Source of the DNA: an uncultured bacterium
GTDB taxonomy: Bacteria > Cloacimonadota > Cloacimonadia > Cloacimonadales > Cloacimonadaceae
Direction: 5' to 3'
Assembly: GCA_938009275.1 (NCBI GenBank)
Contig: CALLHY010000030.1
Location: 11,776 to 75,775, forward strand
Length of the DNA: 64,000 bases
This document shows positions 40,306 to 63,782 of this stretch, in pieces. Numbering within the stretch: the stretch's first letter is position 1; each line of letters begins with the position of its first letter. Made by a program: the position numbers and the translations under genes. The notes under the pieces were generated by a model. That model searched no databases. It saw nothing but the letters and a program-made list of their open reading frames with translations, and had not been told where the DNA came from.

Positions 40306-40339
40306 ATATAACAAACATCCGACTTGAAAAGGGGGTTGC

Positions 40340-41149: not shown

Positions 41150-41178
41150 CCTGGTCAAGAGTCGATTAAGGAGGATAG

Positions 41179-42546: not shown

Positions 42547-42580
42547 GATTAGTCAAAATCAATCATATTGAGGAGATAAA

Positions 42581-43465: not shown

Positions 43466-43506
43466 AAGCGAGTTACCCATCGGTAATATGAAACTATGAG
43501 GAGACT

Positions 43507-44702: not shown

Positions 44703-47700
44703 GTGAAGAACCTAGCCAAGAGCATCTTAAACTACTACTCTACCTACAACGAGACCAGATTCCGCTTTGATACCAGGATAAACTTTGCCTGGAGCAATGA
44801 CGACAAGACGCTGGATATTCCCTTTTTTCCTGAAGTCGCCCAAAACCTGTTAAATGAGATACAGGAGGGTAAAAGGATACATCTTTCAATCCATCCTGAA
44901 GAGCACAGCATTTCTTTGGATAGAAGGGCATTTATTGATGAGGTTTCCAGGGAAGCCAAAGATCTGTTTCCCAGATTACCAGAGACCTTTGACCCGGCAA
45001 ATCAAGAAACCAACAATGCTCTCAGGCAGTTCAATCTGGATCTTCGCTCCAAAGTCCAGGCTATACAATACAACATGCAAGCCCAGAAGATTGCCGAACT
45101 GCAAAATCTGCATGGGACATCGCATCAGCCCAAAACTAGCTTCAACCCTAGCATCAATGAGCAACTTATCTATGACAGCATCCAACGTGAGATAAACGTC
45201 ACGACTGATATTGAGCACTTTAAAGAGGCAGTCCTGCAGATCATCAAGAATTCCGAGTATACACTGGTCCTGTTTGACTTGTTTGCCCAGTTGAGGGATT
45301 TGGATAGGAAGATTGGTCTGGACAGAGTCTATCTCTTTGCCCACCAAATCAGTAATGAAGTTGGCAGCTATCCCCTCTACTTTGTTGAGTTGAGCATTGA
45401 CAACCAATTTGCTTCCATTAGTCTGGTGCAGACCCAGAAGATCATCTACTTGAATACACCAGCTATCAACGCCAACAAGCCCCAAGATGTACTGACATTA
45501 CCACGTGCTGAAGAAATGAGCAACGCACTGGCTACCATACGTCAGTTGAATGGCTTTCTAAATACCATCTACCACGGCCCCCAGGATTTTCTGATGCAGG
45601 ACAAATTCCCCAGCTTGATTTTGCCCAACTATCCAGAGATCTCCTCCCGGGTGGGATTTCAGATCGTAAAACAGGACTCAAACAACCTCCTGGATTACTC
45701 AGAATTACTAGCGCTATCTGACTCTTCAGTAGGGCAGAAATTCCTCAATTTAATAGACCAATACATCAATTCCAATGTTCCCTCTACGCAAAAAGAAGTA
45801 GAACAGCAATACTGGGATAAATACCCTCCCCGGGATGTCTGGAACATTGTCGATGACAATCCCTTCCCCTTAAACAAGTCTCAGAAAAAGATCCTTTTGG
45901 CTGCCCAAAATGAGAAAAACAAGATTATCGTTGTGGAAGGTCCTCCCGGTACCGGGAAATCGCATACTATCTCTGCGCTTGTCTATATGGCTTCAGGCTT
46001 GGGTAAAAGCGTTTTGATCACATCACACAAGAAGCAAGCGCTGGATGTCATCGAAGGTTATCTGACTGCTAAGTTTAGAAGCTTGAATCAAACAGGCAAG
46101 CCAGCCATCATCAGAATGGACAAGGCAAGCGATGGAATCGCCAATCCACCCGCTCAGACTCTGGCTAATCCAGCTTTCAACGGAGCCGCCAATAGGGTTC
46201 AGAGAATTAATATTACTGCAACAGAGCAAAAACTACAAGAGACTCTGGATAGGATCAAAGAGCAGAACCAAGTCTATTGGAAGCAGTTCAATTCGGCTTT
46301 GGTTTCGAATGATCTCATCTCCGAATACCTCGATCTGGAAAAGGATCTACAACTCCCGGAGAGCGAGATTTTTATATGTAACTTCACAGAGAAGGACGCT
46401 TCCGATCTGCTCGGATTCTTCAACCAGTTGCAGGAGATTGATTTCCCCCTCAGTTATCAGCACTTGAAGGAGTATTTCCAGAAAAGGGAAAGGTACGAGG
46501 CCTATAGAAAAGCACTGGAGCATCTAAACAAAGAAAAGACCATACCGACCTCAGCCGCTCCTGAAAGCGTAGATTTATCTTCACTGGAGGGCTTTAGCCA
46601 GATAGTTAAAGCATTAGCCATATCAATAAAAGGCGGTTTCAGTGTTTTCCAAGATGATTTGAAACCCATCAAGTTGCGCTGGGGGGATAAGTATCTTCCC
46701 CGGGCAGATGAGTTGGAATCGCTATCGGCTCTGCTAAATGATATCGAAAAGCACAGCGGATTACTGGCTGGCAAGGAAAGTAAAAAGAAACGCGAAGAGG
46801 CGGAACATGCCCTTGAACAGGATCACCCGGAGTTCTGTGACCAGGTCTTCAAGCTTAGAAAGGTCAAGGAAGCCAGAAAATACCTGGATGAAATCAAAAA
46901 GAAACTGGCTCAAAACTCAAGCGACTCCCAATTCACAGATGCTTATCTGCTGGCTGAGCACAAAAGAGTCAGCTTTGAAAGTATTAAGAGCAACCTTCAG
47001 CAGCTCGGGCATATAGATCATGCTGAGCTTATCCAAACCATAGCCGATCAAACCGGAAAAAAGAAAGATGACCTCACATTGCAGGACCTTGTAACTGGAG
47101 TTGACCTATTAGGATCTCAGAACGAGACTGGCCTGGCAAACAGCCTGATTGAAGAGCTGGCAGCCATGTTGGAAACCGATGTCAGCGCTCTTCCCCTGAT
47201 TAATACCAGATTAAAAAGAGCGCATGAGGTAGTAAGCAAGATTCAGGATACTGACTGGGATTGGTTTGATAAACTATATGATACATACCCAGCCTGGCTG
47301 GAACATCTGGGCATCGGATTGCACGATCTGAGCAACTGGAAGCAGATCCCCGCCGAAATGTTCGAGAAGATGCTCAGGTTGATCCAACTGCAGAATGAAC
47401 TGGCTGCCTTATCGGGAGCAAGTAAACCTGCACAACAGGACATTCAGGAATTCTATCGCCTTGTCCATCAGAGATATGAATATCAAAACGATGAACGCTA
47501 TTCCGACCTGATGAATTTCACAGGAGATATCAGCCGGATGCAGACCTCGATCCTCACTAAAAAACGCCTCTCCTCAGAACAAACCAGTGTGATGAACCAG
47601 CATCTAACCTGCGTGATCGCCCAACCCAGCCTGATCACGGATTACTTTCCCATGGAGGAGGATATCTTTGATTACCTGATCATCGATGAAGCTTCCCAGG

Positions 47701-49109
47701 TCTCGATTGCGGATTCATTATCGCTGATCCTGCGGGCCAAACAGGTGATCATATTTGGAGACGAACTCCAATATGGCGCGGTCAGCGCGGTTAACGTGGC
47801 AGAGCATTATGCCAGTGCCTATTTCAAGGAGATCATCCGCAGCTATAGCAAAGATCAAAACTTCCATGTCTCAGATGAAGATACTGACAGGCTGAGCCGC
47901 GAGGTCAGCAAGGCCTCTGTTGATGAAGATGAGGAGGAGACTTCCCGGATTTTCCTGCCCTCAGCCGGGAACATCGAATGGCTGAAAACCTTCAGCATCA
48001 GGACTTCCACCTTGGCTTTCTGCAGGGCGATGGCCAATTACAGTTCTGCCCTTGATGTTCACTTCCGCAGTTTCCAGGAGATCATCTCCTATTCTGCCCA
48101 GTTCTTTTACAAACAAAACAGCATCGATCTGATCATCAACCGGATCAGGACCAAACCCATCAAGCAGGTACTTAGATTTATCAGGGTAGAAACCAAAACC
48201 CATTCAGCCTCAAACGTGAACCTTGATGAGATCGAAGTGATCATGGATGAATTGAAACAACTGCACGAGCAAAATTTCAAGGGTACTGTCGGCGTGATCT
48301 GCTCTTTCAAAGAACAGCAGGCCAGGATGGAAAAGGAATTCCGGAACAAGAACTATATTACCCATTTGAAGGCTGATAATAATCTGAAGGTCTGGTTTGT
48401 AGGAGACGTGCAAGGTGAAGAGAGAGACCTGATCTTCTATTCCTTTGTCCAGGACGATAAATATAAGACAGCCGATCTCCGGACCATCTATCCTGTGGTG
48501 GGCGGCACAGCCGACAATATCCGCAAACTGAAGATGCAAAGGCTGAATGTGGGCTTTTCCCGCGCCAAGGACACCATGGTCTTCGTACATAGCATGCCCT
48601 TGGAAAAATATAACGATACCACTCTGGGCGCTGCTCTGCAACATTATCATGAGCAATTGGAAAACACACGGGACAACTATATTGAGGATGAGGGCATATT
48701 CGAATCTGAAGCAGAGAAAGAGCTGTATCGTCTGATCACGCAAACTGAGTTTTACCAGAAGCACAAGGATAAGATCAAGCTGGTGGCACAGTTCGAGATC
48801 GGTAAATACCTGGAAGATCAATACCAGCGTTATATCCCCAAATACCGGGTGGACTTTCTGCTTACTCTCAGCCAGGGAGGCAGGGAAAGATCGCTGATCC
48901 TGGAGTATGACGGCTTTGAATACCACTTTGATCCCAACTCGCCCCACGACCCCCAATATCTGGAGTATGACCTGGCCCGCCAATTGGAACTTGAGAGCTA
49001 TGGCTACAAGTTCCTACGCATAAATAAATTCAATCTGCTGCCCTCAGACCCGGCGCAGACCAAGATAAGCACCCTGAACAAATATTTGCAACAAGCCCTG
49101 GAGGAATAA
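44703..49109 (+). CDS. Large SF1 (Upf1/DNA2-like) helicase with a C-terminal DUF559/Vsr-like endonuclease-fold domain
   Basis: GTG start after GGAGG. Motifs are VVEGPPGTGKSHT (Walker A), YLIIDEASQV (motif II), IIFGDELQ and LNVGFSRAKDTMVFV (motif VI). The C-terminus reads YRVDFLL...LILEYDGFEYHF...YGYKFLRINKF. Confidence 0.85.
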   Translation: MKNLAKSILNYYSTYNETRFRFDTRINFAWSNDDKTLDIPFFPEVAQNLLNEIQEGKRIHLSIHPEEHSISLDRRAFIDEVSREAKDLFPRLPETFDPANQETNNALRQFNLDLRSKVQAIQYNMQAQKIAELQNLHGTSHQPKTSFNPSINEQLIYDSIQREINVTTDIEHFKEAVLQIIKNSEYTLVLFDLFAQLRDLDRKIGLDRVYLFAHQISNEVGSYPLYFVELSIDNQFASISLVQTQKIIYLNTPAINANKPQDVLTLPRAEEMSNALATIRQLNGFLNTIYHGPQDFLMQDKFPSLILPNYPEISSRVGFQIVKQDSNNLLDYSELLALSDSSVGQKFLNLIDQYINSNVPSTQKEVEQQYWDKYPPRDVWNIVDDNPFPLNKSQKKILLAAQNEKNKIIVVEGPPGTGKSHTISALVYMASGLGKSVLITSHKKQALDVIEGYLTAKFRSLNQTGKPAIIRMDKASDGIANPPAQTLANPAFNGAANRVQRINITATEQKLQETLDRIKEQNQVYWKQFNSALVSNDLISEYLDLEKDLQLPESEIFICNFTEKDASDLLGFFNQLQEIDFPLSYQHLKEYFQKRERYEAYRKALEHLNKEKTIPTSAAPESVDLSSLEGFSQIVKALAISIKGGFSVFQDDLKPIKLRWGDKYLPRADELESLSALLNDIEKHSGLLAGKESKKKREEAEHALEQDHPEFCDQVFKLRKVKEARKYLDEIKKKLAQNSSDSQFTDAYLLAEHKRVSFESIKSNLQQLGHIDHAELIQTIADQTGKKKDDLTLQDLVTGVDLLGSQNETGLANSLIEELAAMLETDVSALPLINTRLKRAHEVVSKIQDTDWDWFDKLYDTYPAWLEHLGIGLHDLSNWKQIPAEMFEKMLRLIQLQNELAALSGASKPAQQDIQEFYRLVHQRYEYQNDERYSDLMNFTGDISRMQTSILTKKRLSSEQTSVMNQHLTCVIAQPSLITDYFPMEEDIFDYLIIDEASQVSIADSLSLILRAKQVIIFGDELQYGAVSAVNVAEHYASAYFKEIIRSYSKDQNFHVSDEDTDRLSREVSKASVDEDEEETSRIFLPSAGNIEWLKTFSIRTSTLAFCRAMANYSSALDVHFRSFQEIISYSAQFFYKQNSIDLIINRIRTKPIKQVLRFIRVETKTHSASNVNLDEIEVIMDELKQLHEQNFKGTVGVICSFKEQQARMEKEFRNKNYITHLKADNNLKVWFVGDVQGEERDLIFYSFVQDDKYKTADLRTIYPVVGGTADNIRKLKMQRLNVGFSRAKDTMVFVHSMPLEKYNDTTLGAALQHYHEQLENTRDNYIEDEGIFESEAEKELYRLITQTEFYQKHKDKIKLVAQFEIGKYLEDQYQRYIPKYRVDFLLTLSQGGRERSLILEYDGFEYHFDPNSPHDPQYLEYDLARQLELESYGYKFLRINKFNLLPSDPAQTKISTLNKYLQQALEE

Positions 49110-49110
49110 A

Positions 49111-54212: not shown

Positions 54213-55265
54213 ATGACAAACACAACTGATAAAGCGCTGCTGGTTGGCAATGGCATCAACAGGGTGTTTTGCGATTCAGACTACTCCTGGAGTGATCTAT
54301 TACAGGATCTGTCAAACATTCGTTCGGGAAATATTGATCTGAGTAATCCCTTTAAGCCTTTACCTCTAGCCTTTGAAGAGATTCTTAAAGCTAAAAACAA
54401 CGATTATAAAAATGCTGTTCGAGTGTTGAAAAAGAAAACTGCTGAGATATTTGCAAAGCTTCCTGTTCGGGAAGTCCACAGAATGATAGCCGGTAATACT
54501 AAGTATCGGAATATAATGACCACAAATTACGAGTATACTTTGGAAAAAGCTTATGCAGAGATTCATTATCCAAATAGTGACTTCAGGGATCATTGCATAA
54601 GTAAGTTAAGCACAAATGAAGAAATTCACAGTCTTATGAGAAAGTATGAGTTTGCTGATGAGCGCCTTGTAGTTTGGCATATCCATGGTGAGATTAATCA
54701 TACCAAGTATTCAAATGCGGAAAAAATCCTGCCTAGCAATTCAATCTTGATCGGATACAATCAATACATATCATATCTTGATACTATCTATCGGTATTTC
54801 TTTACAAATAAGAAGACCAAATATACAGAATACTCATCTCTACAGGAGAAAATGACTAAATGCATGGCTGACCTGAATAGATTGGACATCGACACCTGGA
54901 TCGATTTCTTCTTTTTCAGAGATATTGATATCATTGGACTTACACTGGACTTCTCAGAGATGCATCTTTGGTGGATACTCAATCGCCGATTTAGCCTAAT
55001 CAAAGACTCTGATATATTCAATGAGGAGTCTGATAAAAAGGCATCATTTAACCCAACAAACACGATCACATACTACTACCCCAAACTAAGCAAGAACTGC
55101 TTGGAAGAGAAGTGCTCTGATGCCCTGAATGATGTTAAACAAAAGGCAATATTGAATATGCTCGAAGTGTTAGGAGTAATCACCAAAGCCGTAAAGTGTA
55201 GATCCTATGAAGATTATTATACTCATGTATTGGGTAATAACGTAATCGCTTCGCAGCGAGCATAA
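54213..55265 (+). CDS. AbiH-like / SIR2_2-like protein (tentative)
   Basis: The N-terminal ALLVGNGINRVF...YSWSDLL and the later VVWHIHGEINH resemble the GNG/GAG start and the (K/H)xHG motif of AbiH and SIR2_2-type defence proteins. This is recollection only. Confidence 0.4.
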   Translation: MTNTTDKALLVGNGINRVFCDSDYSWSDLLQDLSNIRSGNIDLSNPFKPLPLAFEEILKAKNNDYKNAVRVLKKKTAEIFAKLPVREVHRMIAGNTKYRNIMTTNYEYTLEKAYAEIHYPNSDFRDHCISKLSTNEEIHSLMRKYEFADERLVVWHIHGEINHTKYSNAEKILPSNSILIGYNQYISYLDTIYRYFFTNKKTKYTEYSSLQEKMTKCMADLNRLDIDTWIDFFFFRDIDIIGLTLDFSEMHLWWILNRRFSLIKDSDIFNEESDKKASFNPTNTITYYYPKLSKNCLEEKCSDALNDVKQKAILNMLEVLGVITKAVKCRSYEDYYTHVLGNNVIASQRA

Positions 55266-55338: not shown

Positions 55339-58300
55339 ATGTCATACAAAGCTTTGGATGAAGTTCTAAGCAACTTTCAAGATAGAATAATCGGCGTAAA
55401 ATCGATCGATTCTCGTGAGGCTGTATATGAGTCTATACCGGAAAGTTGCCATAGCTCCATTAAGAAGGGGCTGGCAACTTTGGGTATCAAGCAATTGTAT
55501 AGCCACCAAGCCAAGATGTTTTCGGAAGTATACGAGGGCAGGAATGTTATCATTACCACGGGTACTTCCAGTGGAAAATCTTTGGCTTTTTACCTGCCAG
55601 TACTACAAAGTATCATTGAAGATTCACGCGTAAGAGCACTCTTTGTCTATCCAACCAAAGCTCTGGCACAAGATCAAAAAGCAAGCCTGGAGAAGTTCCT
55701 TAAAGCAATCAAATGCAAACCAGAGATAACTGTTGGAGTATACGATGGAGACACTCCGCCCTCAGAACGAAAGAGCATACGAGACCATGCGAATATCATA
55801 CTGACCAATCCGGACATGCTGAATGTCAGCTTCCTGCCAAACCATAATAAGTATGGATTCCAAGAGATCTTTCGATATCTTGACTTTGTGGTCCTGGATG
55901 AGTTGCATGTTTATCGAGGAGCCTTCGGGACACATGTGGCAAATCTCATGCGCAGATTACTCCGTATCTGTAACTACCACGGAGTATCTCCACAATTTCT
56001 TTGCAGCAGTGCCACCATTGCCAATCCTCTTGAACTAGCGCAAAATATCTGTTCCAAACCATTTATCCATCTCGAACAGGATGGTTCGTTCAATTCCGGG
56101 AAAAAGCTGGTTTTTTGGCAGTGTCCACTTCATAATGATTCTCTCAATGAGGTTACAAACCTGATACCTGATCTGGTTGTTAATGATATCAGTAGCATCA
56201 CATTCTGTCAGAGCCGGCGAGACGTAGAGGTTGCTTCACGGGAGATCTGTGGAATCCTGGCTCAGCAGCACGGAAGTATTCATCTACAAAACAAAGTGTC
56301 GGCTTATCGCTCTGGCCTCACTCCCAATGAGAGAAGATCTATCGAGTTTAACCTGCGCACGGGAAAACTTAGAGGAGTGATTTCGACTAATGCGCTCGAA
56401 TTGGGTATAGATATTGGATCATTGGATGCGGTTGTAATGGCAGGATTCCCGGGAACCAAAGCTAGCTTCTGGCAACAAGCTGGTAGAGCAGGCAGAAGAT
56501 CCGGGGATGCTTGGATAGTAATCATTCTATCCAATCGGCCTATTGAACATTACATTGCCCAAGACCTCGATTGGTTAACAGATTCCAGCGTGGAAAATGC
56601 GATAATAGATATCAGCAATATTTTCATTCAGATGGCTCACATCAGAGCCGCAGCATATGAGTTACCGCTATCAAGAACAGACATCAAGTACTTCCATGAT
56701 CTTGGTGTAATAGCTCAAAAGCTAGTTGAGACTGGCGAACTGACTCAGGAAAGTGATCAATTCCTATGGGCTCATAAAAACAATACTAATCCCGCAATGG
56801 AGATCAGTTTACGTAACATGAGCAACGAAAGCATCGATGTTGTGGATAGACAGAGTGAAAAGACTATTACATCTACAGATCTGATTACCGCAAAGTATGA
56901 GCTTTTCCCGGGAGCTATCTACCTCCATGACGGTGTTCAGTATAAAGTACTGGCATTAGATTTTGAACAAAAACAAGCCATATTAACCGGAGTTAACAGC
57001 AACCACTACACTGTGCCTTTCGTGAATACCTCGGTCAGAATACTCGGAACAGTACATCATAAACCAATATTCAGGTGTAAGGCTGCTTGGGGTGACGTCA
57101 AAGTAACTGCCCTAATCAATGCTTATAAAAAAATAGCATATTTCACTCATGAGAACCTTGGCTATGAAGAACTGGATACCGATCAAAGGGTTGATTTGGA
57201 TACCGAGGGTACCTGGATATTGCTGCCGGAAAACCTGCAAGCATTGCCTTCAAGACTAGGATCTGGAGAAGAATCTCCCGTGAACAGAGACTCCAAATAT
57301 GATATTGATGGATTGGTCTTTGCCCTGGTAAACGCGGCATCGATCAGAACAATGGCTTCTTATAGTGATATCGGCGGTACGGTATTTGGGATCGATAAAC
57401 CCCCCAAGTCATCTCTGTTGATCTATGACAAATACAATGGAGGGCTTGGATTTGCCCAGAAGATCTACGAAGTGATTGATGATGTGATCCTGGATGCGAT
57501 AAAAATTGTCGAATCCTGTCCATGTAAACATGGCTGTCCTTCATGTGTTGGACATATGCAAATTGATAAGAACATCGTTTTATGGGCACTGCGCAATCTA
57601 AGGGTAGAATCGCCTATGCCAGAATCTCTGGAGCTGTTACAACAAACTCCCTTAGTAAATCCTAATCCAATCATCCGGGAAAAGTACAAATTGAACTGGA
57701 TCGAAGAGCATTGGAGCGAATTCGCCGATAGTTTCAAGCTAAGCTATCCAGATACCTATCAATTTCTCTTACTCGTACAAGGAGTAACTATACTGGAAAG
57801 CACGATTCACATAGCGGTTTGGAAGTCCAGGATTTATTTTTTGCCAGATTACAAGGACTACTTATCGTCGGTCAGGGAAGATATCCGGAAGTCGATTCAT
57901 GAGCCAGTGGAGGTTATAATTGACTTAGAGGATGATCCTGGGCTTCAAGCAAAGCAAGCAAAACTTGATAGGCATTTCAACAAAAGCCCTGCCATCGAAG
58001 TAAAAGGTTCAAGTCCTCCAGAGGGGGGTATACAATCTACTGCTACTAAAAAATCTTCTGCAGATTCTCAGAAGAGCGAGTCTCTTGACGATGCCGGTGC
58101 CATGGTTACAGAATTCGATTCAAGTACTTCTGAATTGCTTCTTTGGTGCCTGGAGTATGAAGATTATGAACAAGTACTGGATCTGCCAAACAAAGTCTTA
58201 GTATCGATCCTTACGCAAAAATCGGGAAGCCAAGTTATAAAAGCAATCCGTAGCTCTGCAAACTACCAAAAGTTGCTGAAATATATCGTTAAAATGCATC

Positions 58301-60117
58301 GTTCATCTAGTGTCCAATGCACTGCATTAAGCCTTGTAGAAGATGATTTATTCATTGTTGACACAGCTCTCAATAGTCTTTATGCCAGTATTCGCCAAAC
58401 AGCTGCTGATATGATCGTCGACCCGCAATTGCTTCTAAAGATAGCATTGAATGACAGAAGCAGTAAGATACGGGCATCTATGGTGGAGAGAATTAAAGAT
58501 CCAGCATTGTTAGAGCAGGTAGTTCTGGATAGCAAAGAGCAGGATACCATGAAGCAAGCGCTCAAATTAATCGATGACATTGATATTTTAACAAGATTGT
58601 CGTCAGAAAGTAAGTTTGCTGCAATTAGAAACATGGCTTTATCACGACTAAATAAAACACGAAACCGAATCGAAAAAGCTGAGAGAGCCGCAGAAAATGA
58701 AGGGCAAAATCATAAGCCACAAAAACAACAATCAGCTTTCGATAAAATGATGAAGGCAACCGGTACTGTCAAACCGATTTATCAACGAGGCAAAGGACCT
58801 GAAAAACGAAAAACACCATGGGTAGAATTGAGGGACAAGTATCAGGAGGAGTTTTCAGGTATCAAGATTGAACGTCCGCAATTGAATTTAGAAGTATTCA
58901 ACAAGAGCAAGGACTTAACCAAGCTGATCAGGTCCATCTTAGTAGAAGAGAACACCTGGGTACAGGAACAAGACCTCTTTATTGTAGAAGAGGACTCATG
59001 GGAACAGGTACAAGACCTATACACTCTCGTTGCACTGAAGAAAATTGCGTTTGAACTTTCTGGCAAAAAATCTAACGCTAAACTAACGATTGAAACCGAA
59101 TCAGTTTTTAAGGATATTGTTCTAAGTAAAAGAAGCCAGAAATCCAAGCTGGCTGCTATACGGGGTATTGATGATCAACAATTCTTAAAATACCTGCTTT
59201 TTGCCGGAGCAGATAAAGATCATCGCTTGGCTGCAGTGCAAAACATAACCGACCTGTATTTATTGGAACAACTCACTAAACTGGATCGTAGCAAGGATGT
59301 CCGCGAGCAAGCTTATCATAGGTTGTTAGATCTCAAATGGGCAGCTACTAGAGGTGATGGAATTGATAATAGTCTGGCAGTTTTTTTTAAAAAGTCTAGT
59401 CTTGTTGTTATCGACACAGAAACAACTGGATTGACTCCAACCGATCGGATCTGTCAACTTGCTCTTGTTAAGTTTGATTCGTCCGGTGTTGAGACTTTTT
59501 CTGACTACTGTAATCCTCATGTTCCAGTTAATCCCTTTGCTTATATGGTTCATGGCTTATCAGACTCGTTTCTAAAGAAACAGAAAGATATCAAGAAAAC
59601 TCCAACCTACAAGAAGTTGAATGAGTTTATCGCTGAAAAATGCGTTTTCGTTTTTCACAATGCTCCATTTGATCTTCGTTTCCTGTCTTACGCTGGTGTT
59701 AAGATTAATAATCCTGTGGTAGATACCTTGAAAATAATCAGGCAGATGAAGTGTTTCCAGGATAATAAGCTGAGCACAGCATTAACATTTCTAAAGAGAA
59801 TCTTCCCTGACTTGAATGTCAAACCACATGATGCTCTGGGCGATGCTATGACCACTCTGCATTTATTAAAATGGCTGTACCAAGCTTATCCTTGTCACGT
59901 TGGTAGAATGATCTACGAGGGTGGCAATTATTCAGCACATACTGACACTGTTCCACGCACGCCTACCCGATCCCGTAAAAAGAGTAGTAAAAAGCCAAAA
60001 AGTAAGGTTGTCAAAGAACCCAAGGCGAAATCTATAAGTAATGTATCCTTTGACGAGGAAGAAGATGACTTATTCGAATTATACGACGATTTAGAAGATG
60101 ATTTTTACGATTTCTAG
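55339..60117 (+). CDS. YprA/MrfA-type DEAD/DEAH helicase with DUF1998 zinc module, fused to HEAT-like repeats and a C-terminal DnaQ-like DEDDh 3'-5' exonuclease
   Basis: Helicase: LYSHQ, TGTSSGKSLAFYLP, PTKALAQDQ, VLDELHVYRG, TNALELGIDIG and QQAGRAGRR. DUF1998: YDKYNGGLGF...CPCKHGCPSCV. Exonuclease: VVIDTETTGL, FHNAPFDLRFL and HDALGDA. The tail reads ...EEEDDLFELYDDLEDDFYDF. Confidence 0.85.
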   Translation: MSYKALDEVLSNFQDRIIGVKSIDSREAVYESIPESCHSSIKKGLATLGIKQLYSHQAKMFSEVYEGRNVIITTGTSSGKSLAFYLPVLQSIIEDSRVRALFVYPTKALAQDQKASLEKFLKAIKCKPEITVGVYDGDTPPSERKSIRDHANIILTNPDMLNVSFLPNHNKYGFQEIFRYLDFVVLDELHVYRGAFGTHVANLMRRLLRICNYHGVSPQFLCSSATIANPLELAQNICSKPFIHLEQDGSFNSGKKLVFWQCPLHNDSLNEVTNLIPDLVVNDISSITFCQSRRDVEVASREICGILAQQHGSIHLQNKVSAYRSGLTPNERRSIEFNLRTGKLRGVISTNALELGIDIGSLDAVVMAGFPGTKASFWQQAGRAGRRSGDAWIVIILSNRPIEHYIAQDLDWLTDSSVENAIIDISNIFIQMAHIRAAAYELPLSRTDIKYFHDLGVIAQKLVETGELTQESDQFLWAHKNNTNPAMEISLRNMSNESIDVVDRQSEKTITSTDLITAKYELFPGAIYLHDGVQYKVLALDFEQKQAILTGVNSNHYTVPFVNTSVRILGTVHHKPIFRCKAAWGDVKVTALINAYKKIAYFTHENLGYEELDTDQRVDLDTEGTWILLPENLQALPSRLGSGEESPVNRDSKYDIDGLVFALVNAASIRTMASYSDIGGTVFGIDKPPKSSLLIYDKYNGGLGFAQKIYEVIDDVILDAIKIVESCPCKHGCPSCVGHMQIDKNIVLWALRNLRVESPMPESLELLQQTPLVNPNPIIREKYKLNWIEEHWSEFADSFKLSYPDTYQFLLLVQGVTILESTIHIAVWKSRIYFLPDYKDYLSSVREDIRKSIHEPVEVIIDLEDDPGLQAKQAKLDRHFNKSPAIEVKGSSPPEGGIQSTATKKSSADSQKSESLDDAGAMVTEFDSSTSELLLWCLEYEDYEQVLDLPNKVLVSILTQKSGSQVIKAIRSSANYQKLLKYIVKMHRSSSVQCTALSLVEDDLFIVDTALNSLYASIRQTAADMIVDPQLLLKIALNDRSSKIRASMVERIKDPALLEQVVLDSKEQDTMKQALKLIDDIDILTRLSSESKFAAIRNMALSRLNKTRNRIEKAERAAENEGQNHKPQKQQSAFDKMMKATGTVKPIYQRGKGPEKRKTPWVELRDKYQEEFSGIKIERPQLNLEVFNKSKDLTKLIRSILVEENTWVQEQDLFIVEEDSWEQVQDLYTLVALKKIAFELSGKKSNAKLTIETESVFKDIVLSKRSQKSKLAAIRGIDDQQFLKYLLFAGADKDHRLAAVQNITDLYLLEQLTKLDRSKDVREQAYHRLLDLKWAATRGDGIDNSLAVFFKKSSLVVIDTETTGLTPTDRICQLALVKFDSSGVETFSDYCNPHVPVNPFAYMVHGLSDSFLKKQKDIKKTPTYKKLNEFIAEKCVFVFHNAPFDLRFLSYAGVKINNPVVDTLKIIRQMKCFQDNKLSTALTFLKRIFPDLNVKPHDALGDAMTTLHLLKWLYQAYPCHVGRMIYEGGNYSAHTDTVPRTPTRSRKKSSKKPKSKVVKEPKAKSISNVSFDEEEDDLFELYDDLEDDFYDF

Positions 60118-60245
60118 CCATTGTATACTTATTATTCATAGATTAGTTCTAGCTTGCGATAGTTAATACTTGTTTGAAGTCTCGGGCAGGATGTTTAGAA
60201 CTTTTGAGATCACCTAGGCATCCATTATCAGCAGTAAACATTTCA

Positions 60246-60410
60246 TTTGCAGAAATCCTGTCAGAATTTGCAGTTTTCGGTGATCCGATTTGCAGAAAGC
60301 CTGTCCAAAACCACCTAAACAGGTCTTGGGAAGGATGAGCAAGGATGTCCCACGATGCGACAGTTTGCAGATTTCGCTGCACAATATGCAGTTTTCGTTG
60401 TCAGTTTGCA
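60246..60410. repeat. Right-end array of TTTGCAG-type sites (putative transposase-binding sites), including the right terminal inverted repeat 60380-60410
   Basis: TTTGCAG occurs at 60246, 60267, 60289 and 60364, TATGCAG at 60385 and the terminal TTTGCA at 60405-60410. The inverse CTGCAA(A/G) is at 29359 and 29485 in the left end. Confidence 0.6.
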
Positions 60411-60415
60411 CCGTT
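60411..60415. repeat. Right copy of the putative 5-bp target-site duplication CCGTT
   Basis: It immediately follows ...TGTCAGTTTGCA. Confidence 0.5.
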
Positions 60416-60682: not shown

Positions 60683-61396
60683 GTGATTACGATACTTTCG
60701 TTAATCATTAATGTGTTAATTATTATTGCAGGACTTGCTTTTGGATTCTCGTGGAAGCATTGGGCTCCTCGTTTGCTTGAATATGCCTTCGACAAGAAGC
60801 TCATCAAATACAAAACCGATTTGGAGACAGAGAAGGAAAAGCAACTCGCGGAATATGGAAAAACCATAACCGGGTTTAATAAGTGCTTCGATAAAAAATA
60901 CGAAATCTATCCGGTTTTATACGGAAGTATTATAAAGCTTCATGGAGAGTTAAAAAACAGCTGGGATCAGATTCCAGATACTCACGATTTCCAAGTACAA
61001 ACAGAAGGTGAATTCAGCGATTACATAGACACGTTTATATTCTCAAGCCCAGATAGGTGGGGTCTAGTAGAAAAGAAAAAAAATGGTCACATAATCAAGC
61101 AAGATATCCTTAGATTATTGCCTCAGCACTTTCTTCTAAGCATAGGAGAAACAAACAACTACTTTTTGGAGCAACTGATATTCATCTCAAGAGATATTGA
61201 ATCGTTGTTTGAAAAGTTCCGCGAGAATGCTAAAACGATACATTCAGCATACCGGCAAATAACTTCATATCCTAACATCGGAGATCAATGGGGTGTAATT
61301 GAAACAACATGCGAAGAAAATCGTAAGTTAGTAGAGGATATATTACGTCAAATGCGTTCAGAATTAGAACATAATATCTCTAGTCAGGATTCATGA
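60683..61396 (+). CDS. Hypothetical protein with a single N-terminal TM helix
   Basis: GTG start 5 nt after GGAGG. The sequence begins MITILSLIINVLIIIAGLAFGFSW and continues into a soluble helical domain. Confidence 0.5.
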   Translation: MITILSLIINVLIIIAGLAFGFSWKHWAPRLLEYAFDKKLIKYKTDLETEKEKQLAEYGKTITGFNKCFDKKYEIYPVLYGSIIKLHGELKNSWDQIPDTHDFQVQTEGEFSDYIDTFIFSSPDRWGLVEKKKNGHIIKQDILRLLPQHFLLSIGETNNYFLEQLIFISRDIESLFEKFRENAKTIHSAYRQITSYPNIGDQWGVIETTCEENRKLVEDILRQMRSELEHNISSQDS

Positions 61397-61406
61397 GGGA
61401 TAAGAA

Positions 61407-62861
61407 ATGGATAAAAAGGGAAGATTCAAAGTATTCATATCTTACAGTTGGGATCCCAACCATTTTGATAAGAAGGTTGAGTATATAGTTACAAGACTTC
61501 TCAACAATGGGGTAGATGTCATTTTCGACAAGTATGATTGTAAGCCAGGTAATAATGTTTACAAGTTTATGGAAGACTCGGTAAACAATCCTATTGTGGA
61601 TCACGTTCTGATAATGTGCACAGAAGCTTACAAGAAGAAAGCAGACGACAGAGAAAAAGGGGTTGGTGCTGAGACACTGATTATCTCTCCAAAAGTATAT
61701 CAGAATTGCATGCAAAGTAAATTCATTCCAGTTATCTTGGAAAATGATGGTAATGGAAAACCCTATAAGCCAACCTATATTGAGTCCAATATTCATATTG
61801 ACTTGTCGGATGAAGCAGAATTCGAGGCTGAGTTTGACAAGCTTCTAAGATTCATATACAATAAGCCGCTACTTGTTAAACCAGAATTGGGGTCACCTCC
61901 TGCGTTTCTGGAAAATGAGGAAAAAGGGATTATTATAAACTCTCCATTAAAGTACAAAGCATTCCATAAAGCATTAGTAAACGGCAAACCTAACTATCTG
62001 CAACTTCTGCATGAATTTGGAGAGGAGTTTATAAATGATATGGCTCAATTCGAAATCCCAAAAAGCGAAGTAGAGAATCTTGCTTCCGACAAAATAGATG
62101 AGTTAATTCTTAAGAAGATAGAAGAAACAATAACACTCAGCCAAACACTTGAAGAACTGGCTATTGATTTTGGCTATTACTGGGATATGATAATAGAAAC
62201 GGAAGTTATCCAATTTATAGAAAATTATGCATCTTATGCAGTATCATTAGAAACTAGATACAAACATGAATTATCAACTCGAGATTATAGATCTGATGTG
62301 GTAAGGTTCATCCTGTATTTGTTCATTGTTATGTTATCAGCAGCACTAATCCAAAGAAGACGATGTAAAGAATTGAAAACACTGATCGAGCATAAATACC
62401 AGGTTTTCAATACTCTGGATTATACTCAAACTACAGAGCATGATGTGCTAGCCTTCGCGAAGTTCTCATTTTTTCCTTTATCGATTAGTAACATGACTAG
62501 CAGGAACAACACAAATCCAAGGGTTGCTCTGCAAAAAACACTGTCTTCACGCCTTCATAAATTCAAACTCCATGACTTTCAAGAGGCTGACTTTGTGTTG
62601 GGTTTTGTTTCATATACTAGAGCAGAAGTTCAAAAGGTTAAAGGTGAGCATTGGCGGAGCTTTACGCTTACTAACATTCCAGATGTTAAATTGCTACACC
62701 AAATGTGCTCAAAAGCCATTTACGATGCAGCTAAGTGTCTTTTTGGAATTGATGATCCAAGAGAGTTAAGCATGAAATATGGCAGCTATGCGTATAATTA
62801 CAACCCTGGTTTCCCTTCGAACGTTTTTTATCCCTACTATGAGTTTGCTACGCTACCTTAA
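61407..62861 (+). CDS. TIR/SEFIR-like domain protein with a roughly 330-aa C-terminal domain of unknown function
   Basis: FKVFISYSWDPNHFDKKVEYIVTRLLNNGVDVIFDKYDCKPGNN...HVLIMCTEAYKKKADDREKGVGAE follows the bacterial TIR/SEFIR pattern, including a candidate catalytic Glu. Confidence 0.65.
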   Translation: MDKKGRFKVFISYSWDPNHFDKKVEYIVTRLLNNGVDVIFDKYDCKPGNNVYKFMEDSVNNPIVDHVLIMCTEAYKKKADDREKGVGAETLIISPKVYQNCMQSKFIPVILENDGNGKPYKPTYIESNIHIDLSDEAEFEAEFDKLLRFIYNKPLLVKPELGSPPAFLENEEKGIIINSPLKYKAFHKALVNGKPNYLQLLHEFGEEFINDMAQFEIPKSEVENLASDKIDELILKKIEETITLSQTLEELAIDFGYYWDMIIETEVIQFIENYASYAVSLETRYKHELSTRDYRSDVVRFILYLFIVMLSAALIQRRRCKELKTLIEHKYQVFNTLDYTQTTEHDVLAFAKFSFFPLSISNMTSRNNTNPRVALQKTLSSRLHKFKLHDFQEADFVLGFVSYTRAEVQKVKGEHWRSFTLTNIPDVKLLHQMCSKAIYDAAKCLFGIDDPRELSMKYGSYAYNYNPGFPSNVFYPYYEFATLP

Positions 62862-62876
62862 AATCGAGGTCAATTA

Positions 62877-63782
62877 ATGATCTCGTTACCAGTAACTGAG
62901 CAGTACGATACCTCAATTATATGGGACGTATTTTATGATGAGTGCAAAGCGGATGGATATTGGCATTGTTTCCTGTTTATTCCACAAAGTAAGATACAAT
63001 GCATATATGAACTTATCAGCAAAGCGCGTTCCGTTTCTCGGTTTAATGACGCTATTCACTACAAAAACATAGGGCAAAGTGCGAAGCTGAAGAGCAATAG
63101 GGTGGTATTCGTTCGCGTGCTTATGGATATTCTATTATATATCATACAACAACAGAAGATTGATGCAGTGATAGAATGGAATGGAAAAAGGGAGAAATTT
63201 TCACATCCGATTGGAGCCAGGTTGGTGATACTTCGCAAAACAACTGAACTTGTTAACGCTTCTGAGTCTCAAACGCTAGTTGAGGCTACTTTTCGGATGG
63301 GGTTAAAAGGTGCACTTCATTACTTGTTCACTCAGGAAACACCAGTTATCGACAATATATTCGTTGACTATTCCGAGGAATCATTCAAAAGATGTTTTAA
63401 TGAAGACAATATGTGGGAATCAGTTAAGACAGAACTAAGAAATAATATCACTTTCACTAGCGGTTCGTCGTTAAAATTCATAAGTAAACAAGATTACAGC
63501 CTAGATTGCCCAACTAGTCAGATAATGCAATTTGTAGACGTGATTCTCGGTTCATTCCGCACATGCGTAATGCAAAACACTGAATTCCATGCTAGGTATG
63601 TCGCAGCAGAACAGATTAGACGCGTGCTATTAAAGGATTACGAGAATCATGCCAGGATGAAGGAAAGCAGGTATTATAAAGGATACAGCTTGTCTGAAGC
63701 AAGGCTTGTTAATAATTGGATGTTTGATCCTATGAAAATTAAGGTAGATAAGAGTCAGTATGAGATATTCGATTTATTATGA
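62877..63782 (+). CDS. Hypothetical protein, possibly DUF3800-like
   Basis: 301 aa, 15 nt after the TIR gene. VFYDECKADGYWHCFLFIP faintly resembles the DUF3800 N-terminal DE motif. Weak. Confidence 0.35.
   Translation: MISLPVTEQYDTSIIWDVFYDECKADGYWHCFLFIPQSKIQCIYELISKARSVSRFNDAIHYKNIGQSAKLKSNRVVFVRVLMDILLYIIQQQKIDAVIEWNGKREKFSHPIGARLVILRKTTELVNASESQTLVEATFRMGLKGALHYLFTQETPVIDNIFVDYSEESFKRCFNEDNMWESVKTELRNNITFTSGSSLKFISKQDYSLDCPTSQIMQFVDVILGSFRTCVMQNTEFHARYVAAEQIRRVLLKDYENHARMKESRYYKGYSLSEARLVNNWMFDPMKIKVDKSQYEIFDLL

What the first reader, a model, noticed from the sequence alone, without database searches (positions are those of the whole stretch)
55339..60117. Single polypeptide fusing a MrfA/YprA-like helicase (with DUF1998) to a MrfB-like DEDDh exonuclease through HEAT-like repeats
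Residues 1 to about 745 carry all the YprA/MrfA (COG1205-type) helicase motifs and the four-Cys DUF1998 module (CPCKHGCPSCV). Residues from about 1390 onward form a DnaQ-like exonuclease (DTET, HNAPFD, HDALGDA). About 640 residues lie between them, including HEAT/PBS-lyase-like repeats (for example KIRASMVERIKDPALLEQV and KDVREQAYHRLLDL). In Bacillus subtilis, MrfA (helicase) and MrfB (DEDDh exonuclease) are separate adjacent genes acting together in mitomycin-adduct repair. A fusion of both activities is a Rosetta-stone link for that pairing. Here it sits in a defence operon on a transposon, which suggests the repair module has been repurposed against foreign DNA.
Basis: partly seen in the sequence, partly recalled or inferred. 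Interest (0 to 1): 0.7.

Follow-up and report, generated by a model that had tools for sequence, protein, structure and literature searches.

The report
Transposon-borne MrfA helicase fused to exonuclease
One 1,592-residue protein joins a MrfA/YprA-type DNA helicase to a working-looking proofreading-type 3'-5' exonuclease through HEAT repeats. It is the last gene of a methylation-based defence operon carried by a 31-kb Mu/Tn7-like transposon, so it is most likely a DNA-shredding defence effector rather than a repair enzyme.

Summary
ORF 55339-60117 encodes 1,592 aa. Residues 2-739 align end to end with B. subtilis MrfA/YprA (488 bits), with all helicase motifs and the four-Cys MZB/DUF1998 module. 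Residues 1351-1530 form a DEDDh exonuclease with an invariant catalytic pentad. HEAT-like repeats lie between them.

Two parts of the interpretation need correcting:
- The exonuclease is not MrfB-like. It is DnaQ-epsilon/PolC-type (PF00929, H-x4-D), and MrfB is not detected even by a family profile at E<=10.
- MrfA-MrfB fusions are already in the literature, so the Rosetta-stone point is not new.

The context is new as far as I could find. The gene ends a tight five-gene operon: an SF1 helicase with a DUF559 nuclease domain, a Type III-like methylase with a swapped target-recognition domain, a Res-like helicase, a SIR2-like protein, and the fusion. The first three genes and the fusion recur in another arrangement at 44-66% identity.

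The operon lies in a 31,071-bp transposon (29340-60410) flanked by a 5-bp target duplication, in a Cloacimonadota genome. The fusion family is very rare. Its helicase is of the "repair-branch" type, which the 2025 YprA survey does not link to defence.

Most likely role: a processive helicase-exonuclease effector. No activity or defence role has been tested.

The parts
55339..60117 (+). Whole ORF, 1,592 aa: YprA/MrfA helicase, alpha/beta CTD, HEAT repeats, DEDDh exonuclease, basic/acidic tail
55501..56025 (+). RecA1 / DEAD domain (res 55-229), with motif I GTSSGKS 75-81, DELH 187-190, SAT 224-226
   Evidence: Pfam PF00270 E 2.6e-30; motif positions; invariant in 9 homologs
56179..56499 (+). RecA2 / Helicase_C (res 281-387), with motif VI QQAGRAGRR 379-387
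   Evidence: Pfam PF00271 E 5e-17
56605..56817 (+). Winged-helix domain (res 423-493), HRQ1/MrfA type
   Evidence: Pfam PF22982, 40.8 bits
57322..57549 (+). MZB / DUF1998 zinc module (res 662-737), with C727, C729, C733 and C736
   Evidence: Pfam PF09369 E 6e-17; the four Cys are invariant; aligned to the MrfA C-terminus
57679..57951 (+). Small alpha/beta C-terminal domain (res 781-871). The ~880-910-aa chromosomal YprA helicases align with the query to about residue 875. No Pfam family and no confident PDB fold match.
   Evidence: pLDDT >90; Foldseek best E 0.013; unfused relatives cover 48-55% of the query
58120..58713 (+). HEAT-like alpha-solenoid block A (res 928-1125), ending in a long helix
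   Evidence: AF2 helices, pLDDT 80-91; phmmer hits to HEAT-repeat proteins; only 22-34% identical to distant homologs
59077..59358 (+). HEAT-like block B (res 1247-1340), packed just before the exonuclease. Also present in the stand-alone 383-aa paralog P0124.
59389..59928 (+). DEDDh 3'-5' exonuclease, DnaQ-epsilon/PolC type (res 1351-1530): D1359, E1361, D1445, H1497, D1502
   Evidence: PF00929 E 1.8e-25; PDB PolC/epsilon/DnaQ; Foldseek DnaQ 8h2f TM 0.76; pentad invariant
59935..60114 (+). Disordered tail (res 1533-1592): K/S-rich basic half, then an acidic half ending ...DDLEDDFYDF
   Evidence: pLDDT <30; composition; terminal YDF/YNF/EDF recurs in five sequences of the alignment, this one included
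44703..49109 (+). Operon gene 1: 1,468-aa SF1 helicase (AAA_11/AAA_12) with a C-terminal DUF559/Vsr-like nuclease domain
   Evidence: PADLOC MkoA/PDC-S37/Hhe-like partial hits; 57% identical ortholog in L004
49111..51318 (+). Operon gene 2: N6/N4 DNA methyltransferase, Type III Mod-like, with a swapped central target-recognition segment
   Evidence: PF01555; PADLOC MTase_III; res ~200-400 are 14-38% identical while the flanks are 96-100% identical to L091/L094
51315..54185 (+). Operon gene 3: ResIII/SNF2 helicase, Type III Res-like, with a putative C-terminal PD-ExK motif (D842...E884-x-K886, read by eye)
54213..55265 (+). Operon gene 4: SIR2_2-like protein, present only in the colinear version of the operon
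   Evidence: PF13289, 29.6 bits
29340..60410 (.). 31,071-bp Mu/Tn7-like transposon carrying the operon. It has imperfect terminal inverted repeats, subterminal TTTGCAG repeats, and 5-bp direct repeats CCGTT at 29335-29339 and 60411-60415. It includes the transposase (31077-33656) and a TniB/MuB-like ATPase (33666-34373).

Best explanation
The protein is a single-chain helicase-nuclease. Its parts, in order:
- A YprA/MrfA-family SF2 DNA helicase. MrfA is a 3'-5' helicase; that polarity is inferred here by homology.
- A small alpha/beta domain.
- Two HEAT-like scaffolds.
- An epsilon/PolC-type DEDDh 3'-5' exonuclease that looks catalytically competent.

I propose it is the DNA-degrading effector of a methylation-based defence operon that travels as cargo of a Mu/Tn7-like transposon.

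Inferred model. The Type III-like methylase marks host DNA. The Res-like and SF1-Vsr helicase-nucleases recognise or nick unmethylated invader DNA. The fusion protein loads at the resulting 3' end or nick. The helicase feeds single-stranded DNA to the tethered 3'-5' exonuclease, giving processive destruction. This is functionally like Cas3, RecB, WRN, or DISARM DrmAB plus DrmC. The HEAT blocks would act as a docking surface for partners or a trigger. The acidic tail ending in Phe may act as a DNA or SSB-tail mimic that keeps the enzyme off until it is engaged.

Shown by computation: the domain identities, the intact catalytic residues, the operon linkage and the transposon carriage. Inferred only: the polarity, the substrate, the order of events, and the roles of the HEAT repeats and the tail.
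For: Enzyme identity:
- End-to-end match to MrfA with all helicase motifs and four invariant Cys.
- Exonuclease PF00929 E 1.8e-25, pentad invariant, DnaQ/epsilon/ExoX/TREX fold at TM 0.7-0.76.
- Helicase and exonuclease are the most conserved regions (57-69% and 47-67% against distant homologs). The HEAT and CTD regions drift to 21-34%. That pattern fits two constrained enzymes joined by an adaptable scaffold.

Defence context:
- The operon is tight: a 1-nt gap, a 4-nt overlap, then 27- and 73-nt gaps.
- The methylase has a TRD swap between near-identical operons, typical of restriction-modification specificity change.
- PADLOC calls MTase_III and REase_III. The SF1 helicase carries DUF559.
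- The first three genes (SF1 helicase, methylase, Res-like helicase) and the fusion co-occur in every locus with enough flank. The loci are colinear in L005-7, L091 and L094, and divergent in L004 and L092, at 44-66% identity.
- Relatives of the SF1 helicase are widespread. In two of the three contexts I looked up it sits with a methylase and a Res-like helicase plus other defence-type fourth genes: SIR2-STAND-TPR, or Abi_2 with a giant AAA protein.
- Without the three-gene core, the fusion sits among TaqI_C, HTH-M78 and Fic genes or next to a reverse transcriptase.
- The element is a transposon with a 5-bp target duplication.

Precedents: YprA helicases with fused or adjacent nucleases are the core of DISARM, Druantia and ARMADA (10.1101/2025.09.15.676423). 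Hna is an SF2-helicase-like protein that acts as a 3'-5' ssDNA exonuclease in defence (10.1101/2025.11.12.688083).
Against: - No experiment supports defence, and the host is an uncultured Cloacimonadota bacterium.
- The helicase is far closer to the repair enzyme MrfA (488 bits) than to DruE (66 bits in PDB, 138 in PADLOC) or DrmA (75 bits). Its nearest unfused relatives are chromosomal genes next to a UvrD-like helicase in housekeeping surroundings. By homology alone, repair is the default reading.
- The fusion also occurs without the three-gene core, and relatives of the core occur without the fusion. Physical or functional coupling is therefore not proven.
- There are few independent loci, and many are close relatives.
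- The 73-nt gap before the gene could hold its own promoter.
Confidence: 0.55

Rival explanations
1. The fusion is an autonomous single-gene defence module, a helicase-exonuclease in the manner of Hna or Hhe. It merely sits beside, or is 'embedded' at the end of, an independent Type III-like system. It would sense its own trigger, for example phage ssDNA or a phage SSB, through the HEAT repeats or the tail.
For: - It is found alone in Cloacimonetes HGW-3, next to unrelated defence-type genes, and next to a reverse transcriptase in L010.
- Relatives of the SF1 helicase occur without the fusion, in two cases with a methylase, a Res-like helicase and other fourth genes.
- It is less conserved than the core genes (44% against 57-66%).
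- A 73-nt gap lies upstream.
- Defence genes are often nested within or beside larger systems (10.1101/2024.01.29.577857).
Against: Every locus with a close relative (>=56% identity) of this SF1 helicase and readable flanks has the fusion adjacent. That holds in two different orientations, which is more than a shared island would predict.
Confidence: 0.22
2. It is a DNA repair or processing enzyme, as MrfAB is. The transposon would carry it to repair lesions, or to process flaps and gaps left by Mu-type transposition, or to limit self-damage by the neighbouring nucleases.
For: - The best homolog is the repair helicase MrfA.
- The nearest unfused relatives are chromosomal and paired with a UvrD-like helicase.
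- Bell et al. place MrfB-associated and MrfB-fused YprA helicases in the repair branch.
- The gene lies 293 bp from the transposon end.
Against: - Its neighbours are a methylase with TRD swapping, two helicase-nucleases and a SIR2-like protein, not repair genes.
- The fusion family is extremely rare and patchy: one of 185,579 species genomes. That distribution is typical of mobile defence genes, not of repair functions.
- The exonuclease is not MrfB.
Confidence: 0.13
3. It is an RNA-directed or nucleotide-signal-linked effector, with the exonuclease acting on RNA or oligonucleotides, as RNase T and Orn do.
For: PF00929 also covers RNases. Weak hits to Rv2179c-like and RNase T appear. A SIR2-like gene lies upstream.
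Against: The best matches are DNA proofreading exonucleases (PolC, epsilon, DnaQ, ExoX, TREX). The partner domain is a DNA helicase with an OB-CON-MZB DNA clamp.
Confidence: 0.04

Closest known systems
B. subtilis MrfA (YprA) with MrfB (YprB), and the MrfA-MrfB fusions noted by Burby & Simmons 2018/2019 and Bell et al. 2025
   Same: The helicase half is colinear with MrfA over 737 residues (488 bits), with the same RecA1-RecA2-WH-OB-CON-MZB order. A 3'-5' helicase is paired with a DEDDh 3'-5' exonuclease, and a helical-repeat domain accompanies the exonuclease.
   Different: The exonuclease is epsilon/PolC-type (PF00929, H-x4-D), not MrfB-type. The repeats are HEAT and lie N-terminal to the exonuclease, not TPR at the C-terminus. 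There is an extra alpha/beta CTD and a charged tail. The genomic context is a transposon-borne methylase/nuclease operon, not a chromosomal repair pair.
Defence-branch YprA systems: DISARM (DrmA/B/C), Druantia DruE, ARMADA ArmC, Dpd DpdJ
   Same: A YprA-family helicase with DUF1998 is coupled to a nuclease, fused or adjacent, and often to a methylase and a second SNF2/ResIII-type helicase. They are carried on mobile elements.
   Different: Sequence matches are confined to the generic helicase core (DruE 138 bits, DrmA 75 bits, DpdJ 86 bits). The helicase half is colinear with MrfA without large insertions and has the HRQ1/MrfA-type winged helix, so it shows none of the zinc-module, BrxA-like or MarR-like additions that Bell et al. 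describe for this branch. The nuclease is DEDDh rather than PLD or Vsr. The methylase is PF01555 Type III-like rather than PglX-like. The partners (SF1-DUF559 helicase, SIR2-like) differ.
Hna, a single-protein SF2-helicase-like 3'-5' ssDNA exonuclease defence system
   Same: One polypeptide combines SF2 helicase motifs with 3'-5' exonuclease action on DNA. It is autoinhibited and triggered by a phage SSB. This is a precedent for how such a protein can work in defence.
   Different: No homology beyond the SF2 core was shown here. Hna is much smaller and lacks the DUF1998, HEAT and DEDDh modules. I did not test Hna membership specifically.
WRN, S. aureus DinG, Cas3 and RecB: other helicase-nuclease fusions
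   Same: The logic is the same: a translocase tethered to a nuclease for processive DNA resection. WRN and SaDinG also use DEDD-type 3'-5' exonuclease domains.
   Different: The helicase families differ (RecQ, XPD-like DinG, Cas3, SF1 RecB). In WRN and SaDinG the exonuclease is N-terminal. None has the MZB or HEAT modules.

Membership tests
YprA/MrfA helicase family (COG1205, TIGR03817-like) | SF2 motifs I, II (DExH), III and VI in two RecA domains | tested here: met
   GTSSGKS 75-81, DELH 187-190, SAT 224-226, QQAGRAGRR 379-387, invariant in 9 homologs; PF00270 and PF00271
YprA/MrfA helicase family (COG1205, TIGR03817-like) | Winged-helix, then the OB-CON-MZB (DUF1998) module with four zinc-binding Cys, fused to the helicase | tested here: met
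   PF22982 and PF09369 above threshold; C727/C729/C733/C736 invariant; colinear with 6znp residues 4-732; TIGR03817 566 bits over 711 of 742 positions, though below the equivalog cut-off of 874
YprA/MrfA helicase family (COG1205, TIGR03817-like) | 3'-5' DNA unwinding; role in mitomycin C adduct repair | not testable with these tools
   Needs biochemistry and genetics
MrfB/YprB exonuclease | YprB-type RNase H-like exonuclease domain (PF13482; family assignment from memory) and detectable similarity to MrfB (PDB 8UN9) | tested here: not met
   PF13482 scores 19.4 bits, below the 22 cut-off, against PF00929 at 90.8 bits. A family profile searched against all PDB sequences at E<=10 does not find 8UN9. 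It is not in the Foldseek top 50.
MrfB/YprB exonuclease | Catalytic His four residues before the last Asp (H258/D262), and a C-terminal TPR domain (PMC11194089) | tested here: not met
   H1497 and D1502 are five residues apart (H-x4-D), as in E. coli epsilon. There is no TPR. The HEAT-like repeats lie N-terminal to the exonuclease.
DnaQ-epsilon/PolC-type DEDDh exonuclease (PF00929) | Exo I DxE, Exo II D, Exo III H-x4-D, on an RNase H-like fold | tested here: met
   D1359, E1361, D1445, H1497 and D1502 are invariant. PF00929 E 1.8e-25. PolC, epsilon, DnaQ and ExoX are the top PDB hits. Foldseek TM 0.70-0.76.
HEAT / PBS-lyase-like repeats | Tandem helix-turn-helix repeats of ~30-40 residues forming an alpha-solenoid, recognised by PF02985 or PF13646 | tested here: inconclusive
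   No significant Pfam HEAT hit in this protein. However, homolog P0010 passes PF02985 (28.6 bits against a cut-off of 23.5). Exhaustive phmmer hits in the region are proteins that themselves score as HEAT/HEAT_2. AF2 shows paired short helices.
Druantia DruE | ~1,800-2,100-aa YprA-like helicase with a C-terminal PLD or Vsr domain, next to DruH or DruA-D/DruM-F-G | tested here: not met
   PADLOC DruE hits are limited to the helicase core (for example profile positions 92-288 of 2,023). No PLD or Vsr domain is present. No Dru partners are in the operon.
DISARM | DrmA helicase, separate DrmB (DUF1998), DrmC PLD nuclease, with DrmMI/DrmD or DrmMII/DrmE | tested here: not met
   The DrmA hit is 75 bits and partial. 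The helicase and DUF1998 are in one chain. There is no PLD gene. The methylase is PF01555.
Type III restriction-modification (for the neighbouring genes) | Mod (N6/N4 methylase with a variable TRD) followed by Res (ResIII helicase with a C-terminal PD-ExK nuclease) | tested here: inconclusive
   Mod features are met (PF01555; PADLOC MTase_III E 6e-43; TRD swap). Res matches only weakly (PADLOC REase_III E 7e-11; NCBIfam BPTD_3080 62.9 bits against a cut-off of 800). The nuclease motif was read by eye. A Type III system does not include the SF1-DUF559 helicase.
Hma (helicase, methylase, ATPase) | Three-gene operon with an m5C methyltransferase (PMC8565338) | tested here: not met
   The methylase is N6/N4 type. 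No Hma model appears among the PADLOC hits for the three core proteins.

The most novel reading that the evidence does not exclude
A helicase of the MrfA 'repair' type, not the DISARM/Druantia/ARMADA 'defence' lineage, has independently captured an epsilon-like proofreading exonuclease through a HEAT scaffold. It now serves as the processive DNA-destruction arm of an undescribed methylation-dependent defence system. The core of that system (SF1-Vsr helicase, Type III-like Mod, Res-like helicase) appears widespread and accepts interchangeable fourth genes. If so, this is a second, convergent recruitment of YprA helicases into immunity, and the three-gene core is a new system class.
Probability: 0.35. 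Interest if true: 0.65.

Novelty: new variant of a known kind. Interest (0 to 1): 0.45.

Why it matters
YprA-family helicases are now seen as the common engine of DISARM, Dpd, Druantia and ARMADA. The 2025 family survey separates a "repair" branch (MrfA, with or without MrfB) from a "defence" branch. This locus suggests the boundary is leaky. A MrfA-type helicase, with a different DEDDh exonuclease attached, is embedded in a transposon-borne methylase/nuclease operon.

If it does act in defence, three things follow:
- It gives a compact, single-chain helicase-exonuclease for studying how YprA helicases hand DNA to a nuclease. That question is still open for MrfAB.
- It points to a widespread but unnamed three-gene core (SF1-DUF559 helicase, Mod, Res-like) that swaps accessory effectors.
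- It adds a DEDDh 3'-5' exonuclease to the short list of nuclease types used by YprA systems.

The limits are that the family is very rare, is found mostly in uncultured Cloacimonadota, and has not been tested.

Tried and rejected
- A protein search with the spacer, exonuclease and tail (res 745-1592) returned only 2 hits. I suspect the low-complexity tail filled the word index. I repeated the search exhaustively without the tail.
- I looked for the fusion on plasmids and in IMG/VR viral contigs. Only generic exonuclease-domain matches appeared.
- I tested whether the SF1 helicase-methylase-helicase core is the published Hma system. It is not: Hma has an m5C methylase, and no PADLOC Hma hit appeared.
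- I tested DruE and DISARM membership and rejected both.
- I searched the Bell et al. supplements for MrfB, DnaQ, HEAT and fusion entries and found nothing.
- Two 2025 preprints on defence-system modularity mention YprA or DEDDh only in passing.
- The generic inverted-repeat finder (minimum 18 nt) missed the transposon ends. I found them by eye and by k-mer comparison.
- The fold search of the alpha/beta CTD gave no confident match. Its weak resemblance to KH-like domains (uS3, DnaA domain I) is not reliable.
- The promoter and terminator scans were at background level.
- L093 carries the SF1 helicase with no fusion upstream, and its downstream side is cut off, so it is uninformative.
- I could not obtain the MrfB sequence for a direct pairwise alignment. 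I could not retrieve the published MrfA-MrfB fusions to see which exonuclease type they carry.
Full report

Yes. The window has a single ORF at 55339-60117 on the + strand, 1,592 codons, with an ATG start preceded by GGGAGAA.

Pfam finds five domains:

| Domain | Residues | E-value |
|---|---|---|
| DEAD | 55-229 | 2.6e-30 |
| Helicase_C | 281-387 | 5e-17 |
| HRQ1/MrfA-type winged helix | 423-493 | 4.7e-10 |
| MrfA zinc-binding domain (MZB = DUF1998) | 662-737 | 6.3e-17 |
| RNase_T-type exonuclease | 1356-1509 | 1.8e-25 |

- Against all PDB sequences, residues 2-739 align without large gaps to residues 4-732 of B. subtilis YprA/MrfA (6znp; 488-490 bits, E about 1e-145). The next hits are far weaker: Lhr at about 92 bits and DruE (9tu7) at 66 bits.
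- In an alignment with eight homologs at 43-88% identity, the Walker A Lys, DELH, the four Cys, and the exonuclease pentad D1359/E1361/D1445/H1497/D1502 are all invariant.
- Eleven clusters (P0001-P0011) from separate NCBI, JGI, ENA and Logan samples carry both the helicase/MZB and exonuclease domains. The fusion is therefore not an assembly or frameshift artefact.

**2. Anatomy of the C-terminal 850 residues**

An AlphaFold2 model of residues 741-1592, built on the 11-sequence alignment (mean pLDDT 72), shows these parts in order:

- a confident small alpha/beta domain (781-871)
- a disordered stretch (872-926)
- a run of short paired helices ending in a long helix (928-1125)
- a second disordered stretch
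- more helices, including a second repeat block (1247-1340)
- a compact alpha/beta exonuclease (1351-1530)
- a disordered tail (1533-1592)

Exonuclease domain. The exonuclease part of the model superposes on the DnaQ domain 8h2f, E. coli epsilon, ExoX and TREX1/2, with target-normalised TM 0.6-0.76.

HEAT repeats. The evidence is indirect but consistent.
- Pfam finds nothing significant in this protein's spacer.
- The 44%-identical homolog P0010 passes PF02985.
- An exhaustive phmmer search of 1.84 billion representatives matches residues ~935-1160 to multi-repeat proteins at E down to 1e-21. Those proteins themselves score as HEAT/HEAT_2.

Alpha/beta domain 781-871. Re-modelled with 41 sequences it has pLDDT above 90, but it has no confident structural relative (best Foldseek E 0.013). 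The nearest unfused relatives are ~880-910-aa YprA helicases of Bacteroidota and Clostridia. They cover 48-55% of the query, that is, to about residue 875. The fusion therefore looks like one of those helicases with a linker-HEAT-exonuclease module added.

Tail. It is K/S-rich and then strongly acidic, and ends ...DDLEDDFYDF. A terminal YDF, YNF or EDF recurs in five sequences of the alignment, this one included.

Conservation by region. Against the three distant homologs, identity is 57-69% for the helicase and 47-67% for the exonuclease. It falls to 21-34% for the alpha/beta domain and the first HEAT block.

**3. Is the exonuclease MrfB-like?**

No.
- MrfB (PDB 8UN9) is a DEDDh enzyme with His258 four residues before Asp262. 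It resembles DEDDy family-B polymerase exonucleases and carries a C-terminal TPR domain (PMC11194089).
- Here His and Asp are five residues apart, as in epsilon. PF13482 is, from memory, the YprB-type model; it scores 19.4 bits, below its cut-off of 22, against 90.8 bits for PF00929.
- A profile of the family's HEAT-plus-exonuclease region, searched against every PDB sequence at E<=10, finds PolC-exo, epsilon, DnaQ and ExoX but not 8UN9.
- 8UN9 is also absent from the Foldseek top 50.
- The helical repeats are HEAT, not TPR, and they precede the exonuclease rather than follow it.

The closest stand-alone relatives of the exonuclease are small proteins. One is P0124, 383 aa, made of HEAT-like repeats plus the exonuclease. 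A gene of that length and domain content lies directly downstream of the fusion gene in locus L004 and matches fusion residues 1241-1518 at 35% identity. I take P0124 to be that gene. This suggests the HEAT-exonuclease unit existed as a separate gene before it was fused.

**4. Is the Rosetta-stone point new?**

No. The legend of Fig. 6 in Burby & Simmons (10.1101/426304) already marks an organism in which the MrfA and MrfB homologs are one protein. Bell et al. [quoted passage not shown]

**5. Surroundings**

The gene is the last of five on one strand:
- 44703-49109: a 1,468-aa SF1 helicase (AAA_11/AAA_12) with a C-terminal DUF559/MTES_1575 Vsr-like nuclease domain.
- 49111-51318: an N6/N4 methylase that PADLOC scores as Type III Mod (E 6e-43).
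- 51315-54185: a ResIII/SNF2 helicase that PADLOC scores weakly as Type III Res. It has a C-terminal D...ExK motif that I read by eye.
- 54213-55265: a SIR2_2-like protein.
- 55339-60117: the fusion.

The gaps between successive genes are 1 nt, a 4-nt overlap, 27 nt and 73 nt.

Co-occurrence.
- Close relatives (78-88% identity) keep the same five-gene order (L005-7, L091, L094).
- Two more distant loci (L004, L092) keep the SF1 helicase, methylase and Res-like helicase at 57-70% identity. There the fusion (44-60% identical) is divergently oriented upstream, and SIR2 is absent.
- In every locus with readable flanks, the fusion is adjacent to these three genes.

Methylase. Between operons that are 94-98% identical in the two helicases, the methylase is 96-100% identical at both ends but only 14-38% identical over residues ~200-400. 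This is a target-recognition-domain swap, the signature of changing restriction-modification specificity.

How widespread the core is.
- Full-length relatives of the SF1 helicase at ~40% identity number in the hundreds of clusters.
- In two of the three contexts I looked up, it again sits with a PF01555 methylase and a 942-aa ResIII/SNF2 protein, but with other fourth genes. One has a 1,035-aa SIR2-STAND-TPR protein. The other has an embedded Abi_2 gene and a 2,055-aa AAA protein. The third has no complete core.
- The core is not Hma, which has an m5C methylase. I found no paper that names it.

The fusion without the core. In Cloacimonetes HGW-3 it is followed by TaqI_C, HTH/M78 and Fic genes. 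In L010 it sits next to a reverse transcriptase.

**6. The transposon**

Upstream lie a CI/S24-type repressor (29550-30305, minus strand), an 859-aa transposase with rve and Mu-transposase C-terminal domains (31077-33656), and a TniB/MuB-like AAA protein (33666-34373).
- The intergenic DNA after the fusion gene carries four TTTGCAGWWWKC repeats (none of 100 shuffles reached four).
- It shares inverted segments with the DNA left of the repressor.
- Reading both sides, the left end is 29340 (TATAAACTGACAC...) and the right end is 60410 (...GTCAGTTTGCA). The termini match at 11 of 14 positions.
- Both ends are flanked by CCGTT (29335-29339 and 60411-60415). A 5-bp target duplication is what Mu and Tn7 make (from my own knowledge of these elements).
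- Homology with L006 downstream of its fusion gene ends right after ...TTTGCA.

The element is 31,071 bp, and the fusion gene's stop codon is 293 bp from its right end.

L004 shares other element genes at 40-54% identity: the TniB-like ATPase, a 605-aa AAA protein, a PHP protein and a 294-aa ORF. It is therefore a related element. The host is a Cloacimonadota bacterium, judged from the ornithine carbamoyltransferase cluster.

**7. How rare is it?**

- The exhaustive search finds the linker-plus-exonuclease module in only three other 50%-identity clusters.
- Among 185,579 species-representative genomes, only Cloacimonetes HGW-3 has it.
- None of 72,556 plasmids has it, and no IMG/VR contig has it.
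- Only four JGI metagenome contigs carry the close SF1 helicase.

**8. Most likely mechanism (inference)**

- MrfA is a 3'-5' helicase whose OB-CON-MZB module clamps the tracked strand (PMC7797055, abstract only).
- Epsilon-type DEDDh enzymes remove nucleotides from 3' ends of single strands.
- Tethered together, the two would form a resection machine, like Cas3, RecB or WRN. Within the YprA family, the parallels are DrmAB plus DrmC, or DruE with its PLD domain.
- The neighbours are a specificity-swapping methylase and two helicase-nucleases. I therefore think the fusion destroys unmethylated invader DNA after it has been recognised or nicked.
- The fast-evolving HEAT blocks are candidates for partner or trigger binding.
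- The acidic tail ending in Phe resembles the C-terminal tails of SSB and T7 gp2.5 (from memory). It could be autoinhibitory. Hna, an SF2-type 3'-5' exonuclease released by a phage SSB, is a precedent for that kind of control (10.1101/2025.11.12.688083).

I give this model 0.55. An autonomous single-gene defence module gets 0.22, a repair or transposition-processing role 0.13, and an RNA-directed role 0.04.

**9. Comparison with known families and verdict**

- It is a member of the YprA/MrfA helicase family and of the epsilon-type DEDDh family.
- It is not MrfB-like, not DruE and not DISARM.
- It works like the helicase-nuclease effectors of the YprA defence systems.
- Its helicase is of the type that the 2025 survey assigns to repair. 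Its nuclease type and its partners are not among those described there.

I rate it a new variant of a known kind, with interest 0.45. The architecture and context are solid and somewhat unexpected. The headline Rosetta-stone claim is already published, the MrfB assignment is wrong, the family is very rare, and nothing has been tested.

Noticed in passing
window 29335-29360 and 60240-60415: Transposon ends. The 5-bp direct repeat CCGTT flanks a 31,071-bp element (29340-60410). The termini are imperfectly inverted (TATAAACTGACA / TGCAAACTGACA), and four TTTGCAGWWWKC subterminal repeats lie at the right end.
   Followed up: yes
window 49111-51318 (residues ~200-400 of the methylase): The central segment of the methylase is only 14-38% identical to that of otherwise 94-100% identical operons (L091, L094). 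This is a target-recognition-domain swap.
   Followed up: yes
window 44703-54185; L096 10001-20618; L097 10001-19165: The SF1 helicase (DUF559 C-terminus) has hundreds of ~40%-identical full-length relatives. In two of the three contexts I looked up it sits with an N6/N4 methylase and a ResIII/SNF2 helicase, plus different fourth or embedded genes (SIR2-STAND-TPR; Abi_2 with a 2,055-aa AAA protein). I found no name for this three-gene core in PADLOC, NCBIfam or the literature.
   Followed up: partly
window 59935-60114 (residues 1533-1592): The tail is basic and then acidic, and disordered. It ends ...FYDF. A terminal YDF, YNF or EDF recurs in homologs down to 44% identity, and it resembles SSB and T7 gp2.5 C-terminal tails.
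   Followed up: no
L004 14984-16135: A stand-alone 383-aa gene made of HEAT-like repeats plus the same exonuclease subtype (35% identical to fusion residues 1241-1518; I take it to be P0124) lies directly downstream of the fusion gene. It may be the unfused form of the C-terminal module.
   Followed up: partly
window 60683-63782: Just outside the transposon's right end are a 237-aa ORF, a 484-aa TIR/SEFIR-domain protein (61407-62861) and a 301-aa ORF with no family hits. This may be a separate defence locus into or beside which the transposon inserted.
   Followed up: no
window 35725-44229: Other transposon genes: a 605-aa AAA+ protein, an REase-ARP/PD-(D/E)xK protein (37551-38462), a 455-aa PHP-domain protein (41179-42546) and several ORFs with no family. 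The AAA, PHP and 294-aa ORFs recur at ~40% identity in the related element L004. They may be element backbone or a second cargo system.
   Followed up: partly
L008 8001-13321; L009 8001-12701: The nearest unfused relatives are ~880-900-aa YprA helicases carrying the extra C-terminal region. In both Marinifilum and Oxobacter they are followed immediately by a UvrD/PcrA-like helicase, in housekeeping surroundings. This may be a conserved helicase pair.
   Followed up: no
L010 4664-6283: In one metagenome contig a shorter fusion homolog (P0011, 1,426 aa) is followed by a 539-aa reverse transcriptase (RVT_1).
   Followed up: no
window 28920-29110: Tandem-like short repeats (CTCGAC... and CCAGCAC... 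units) lie between the ornithine carbamoyltransferase gene and the left end of the transposon.
   Followed up: no
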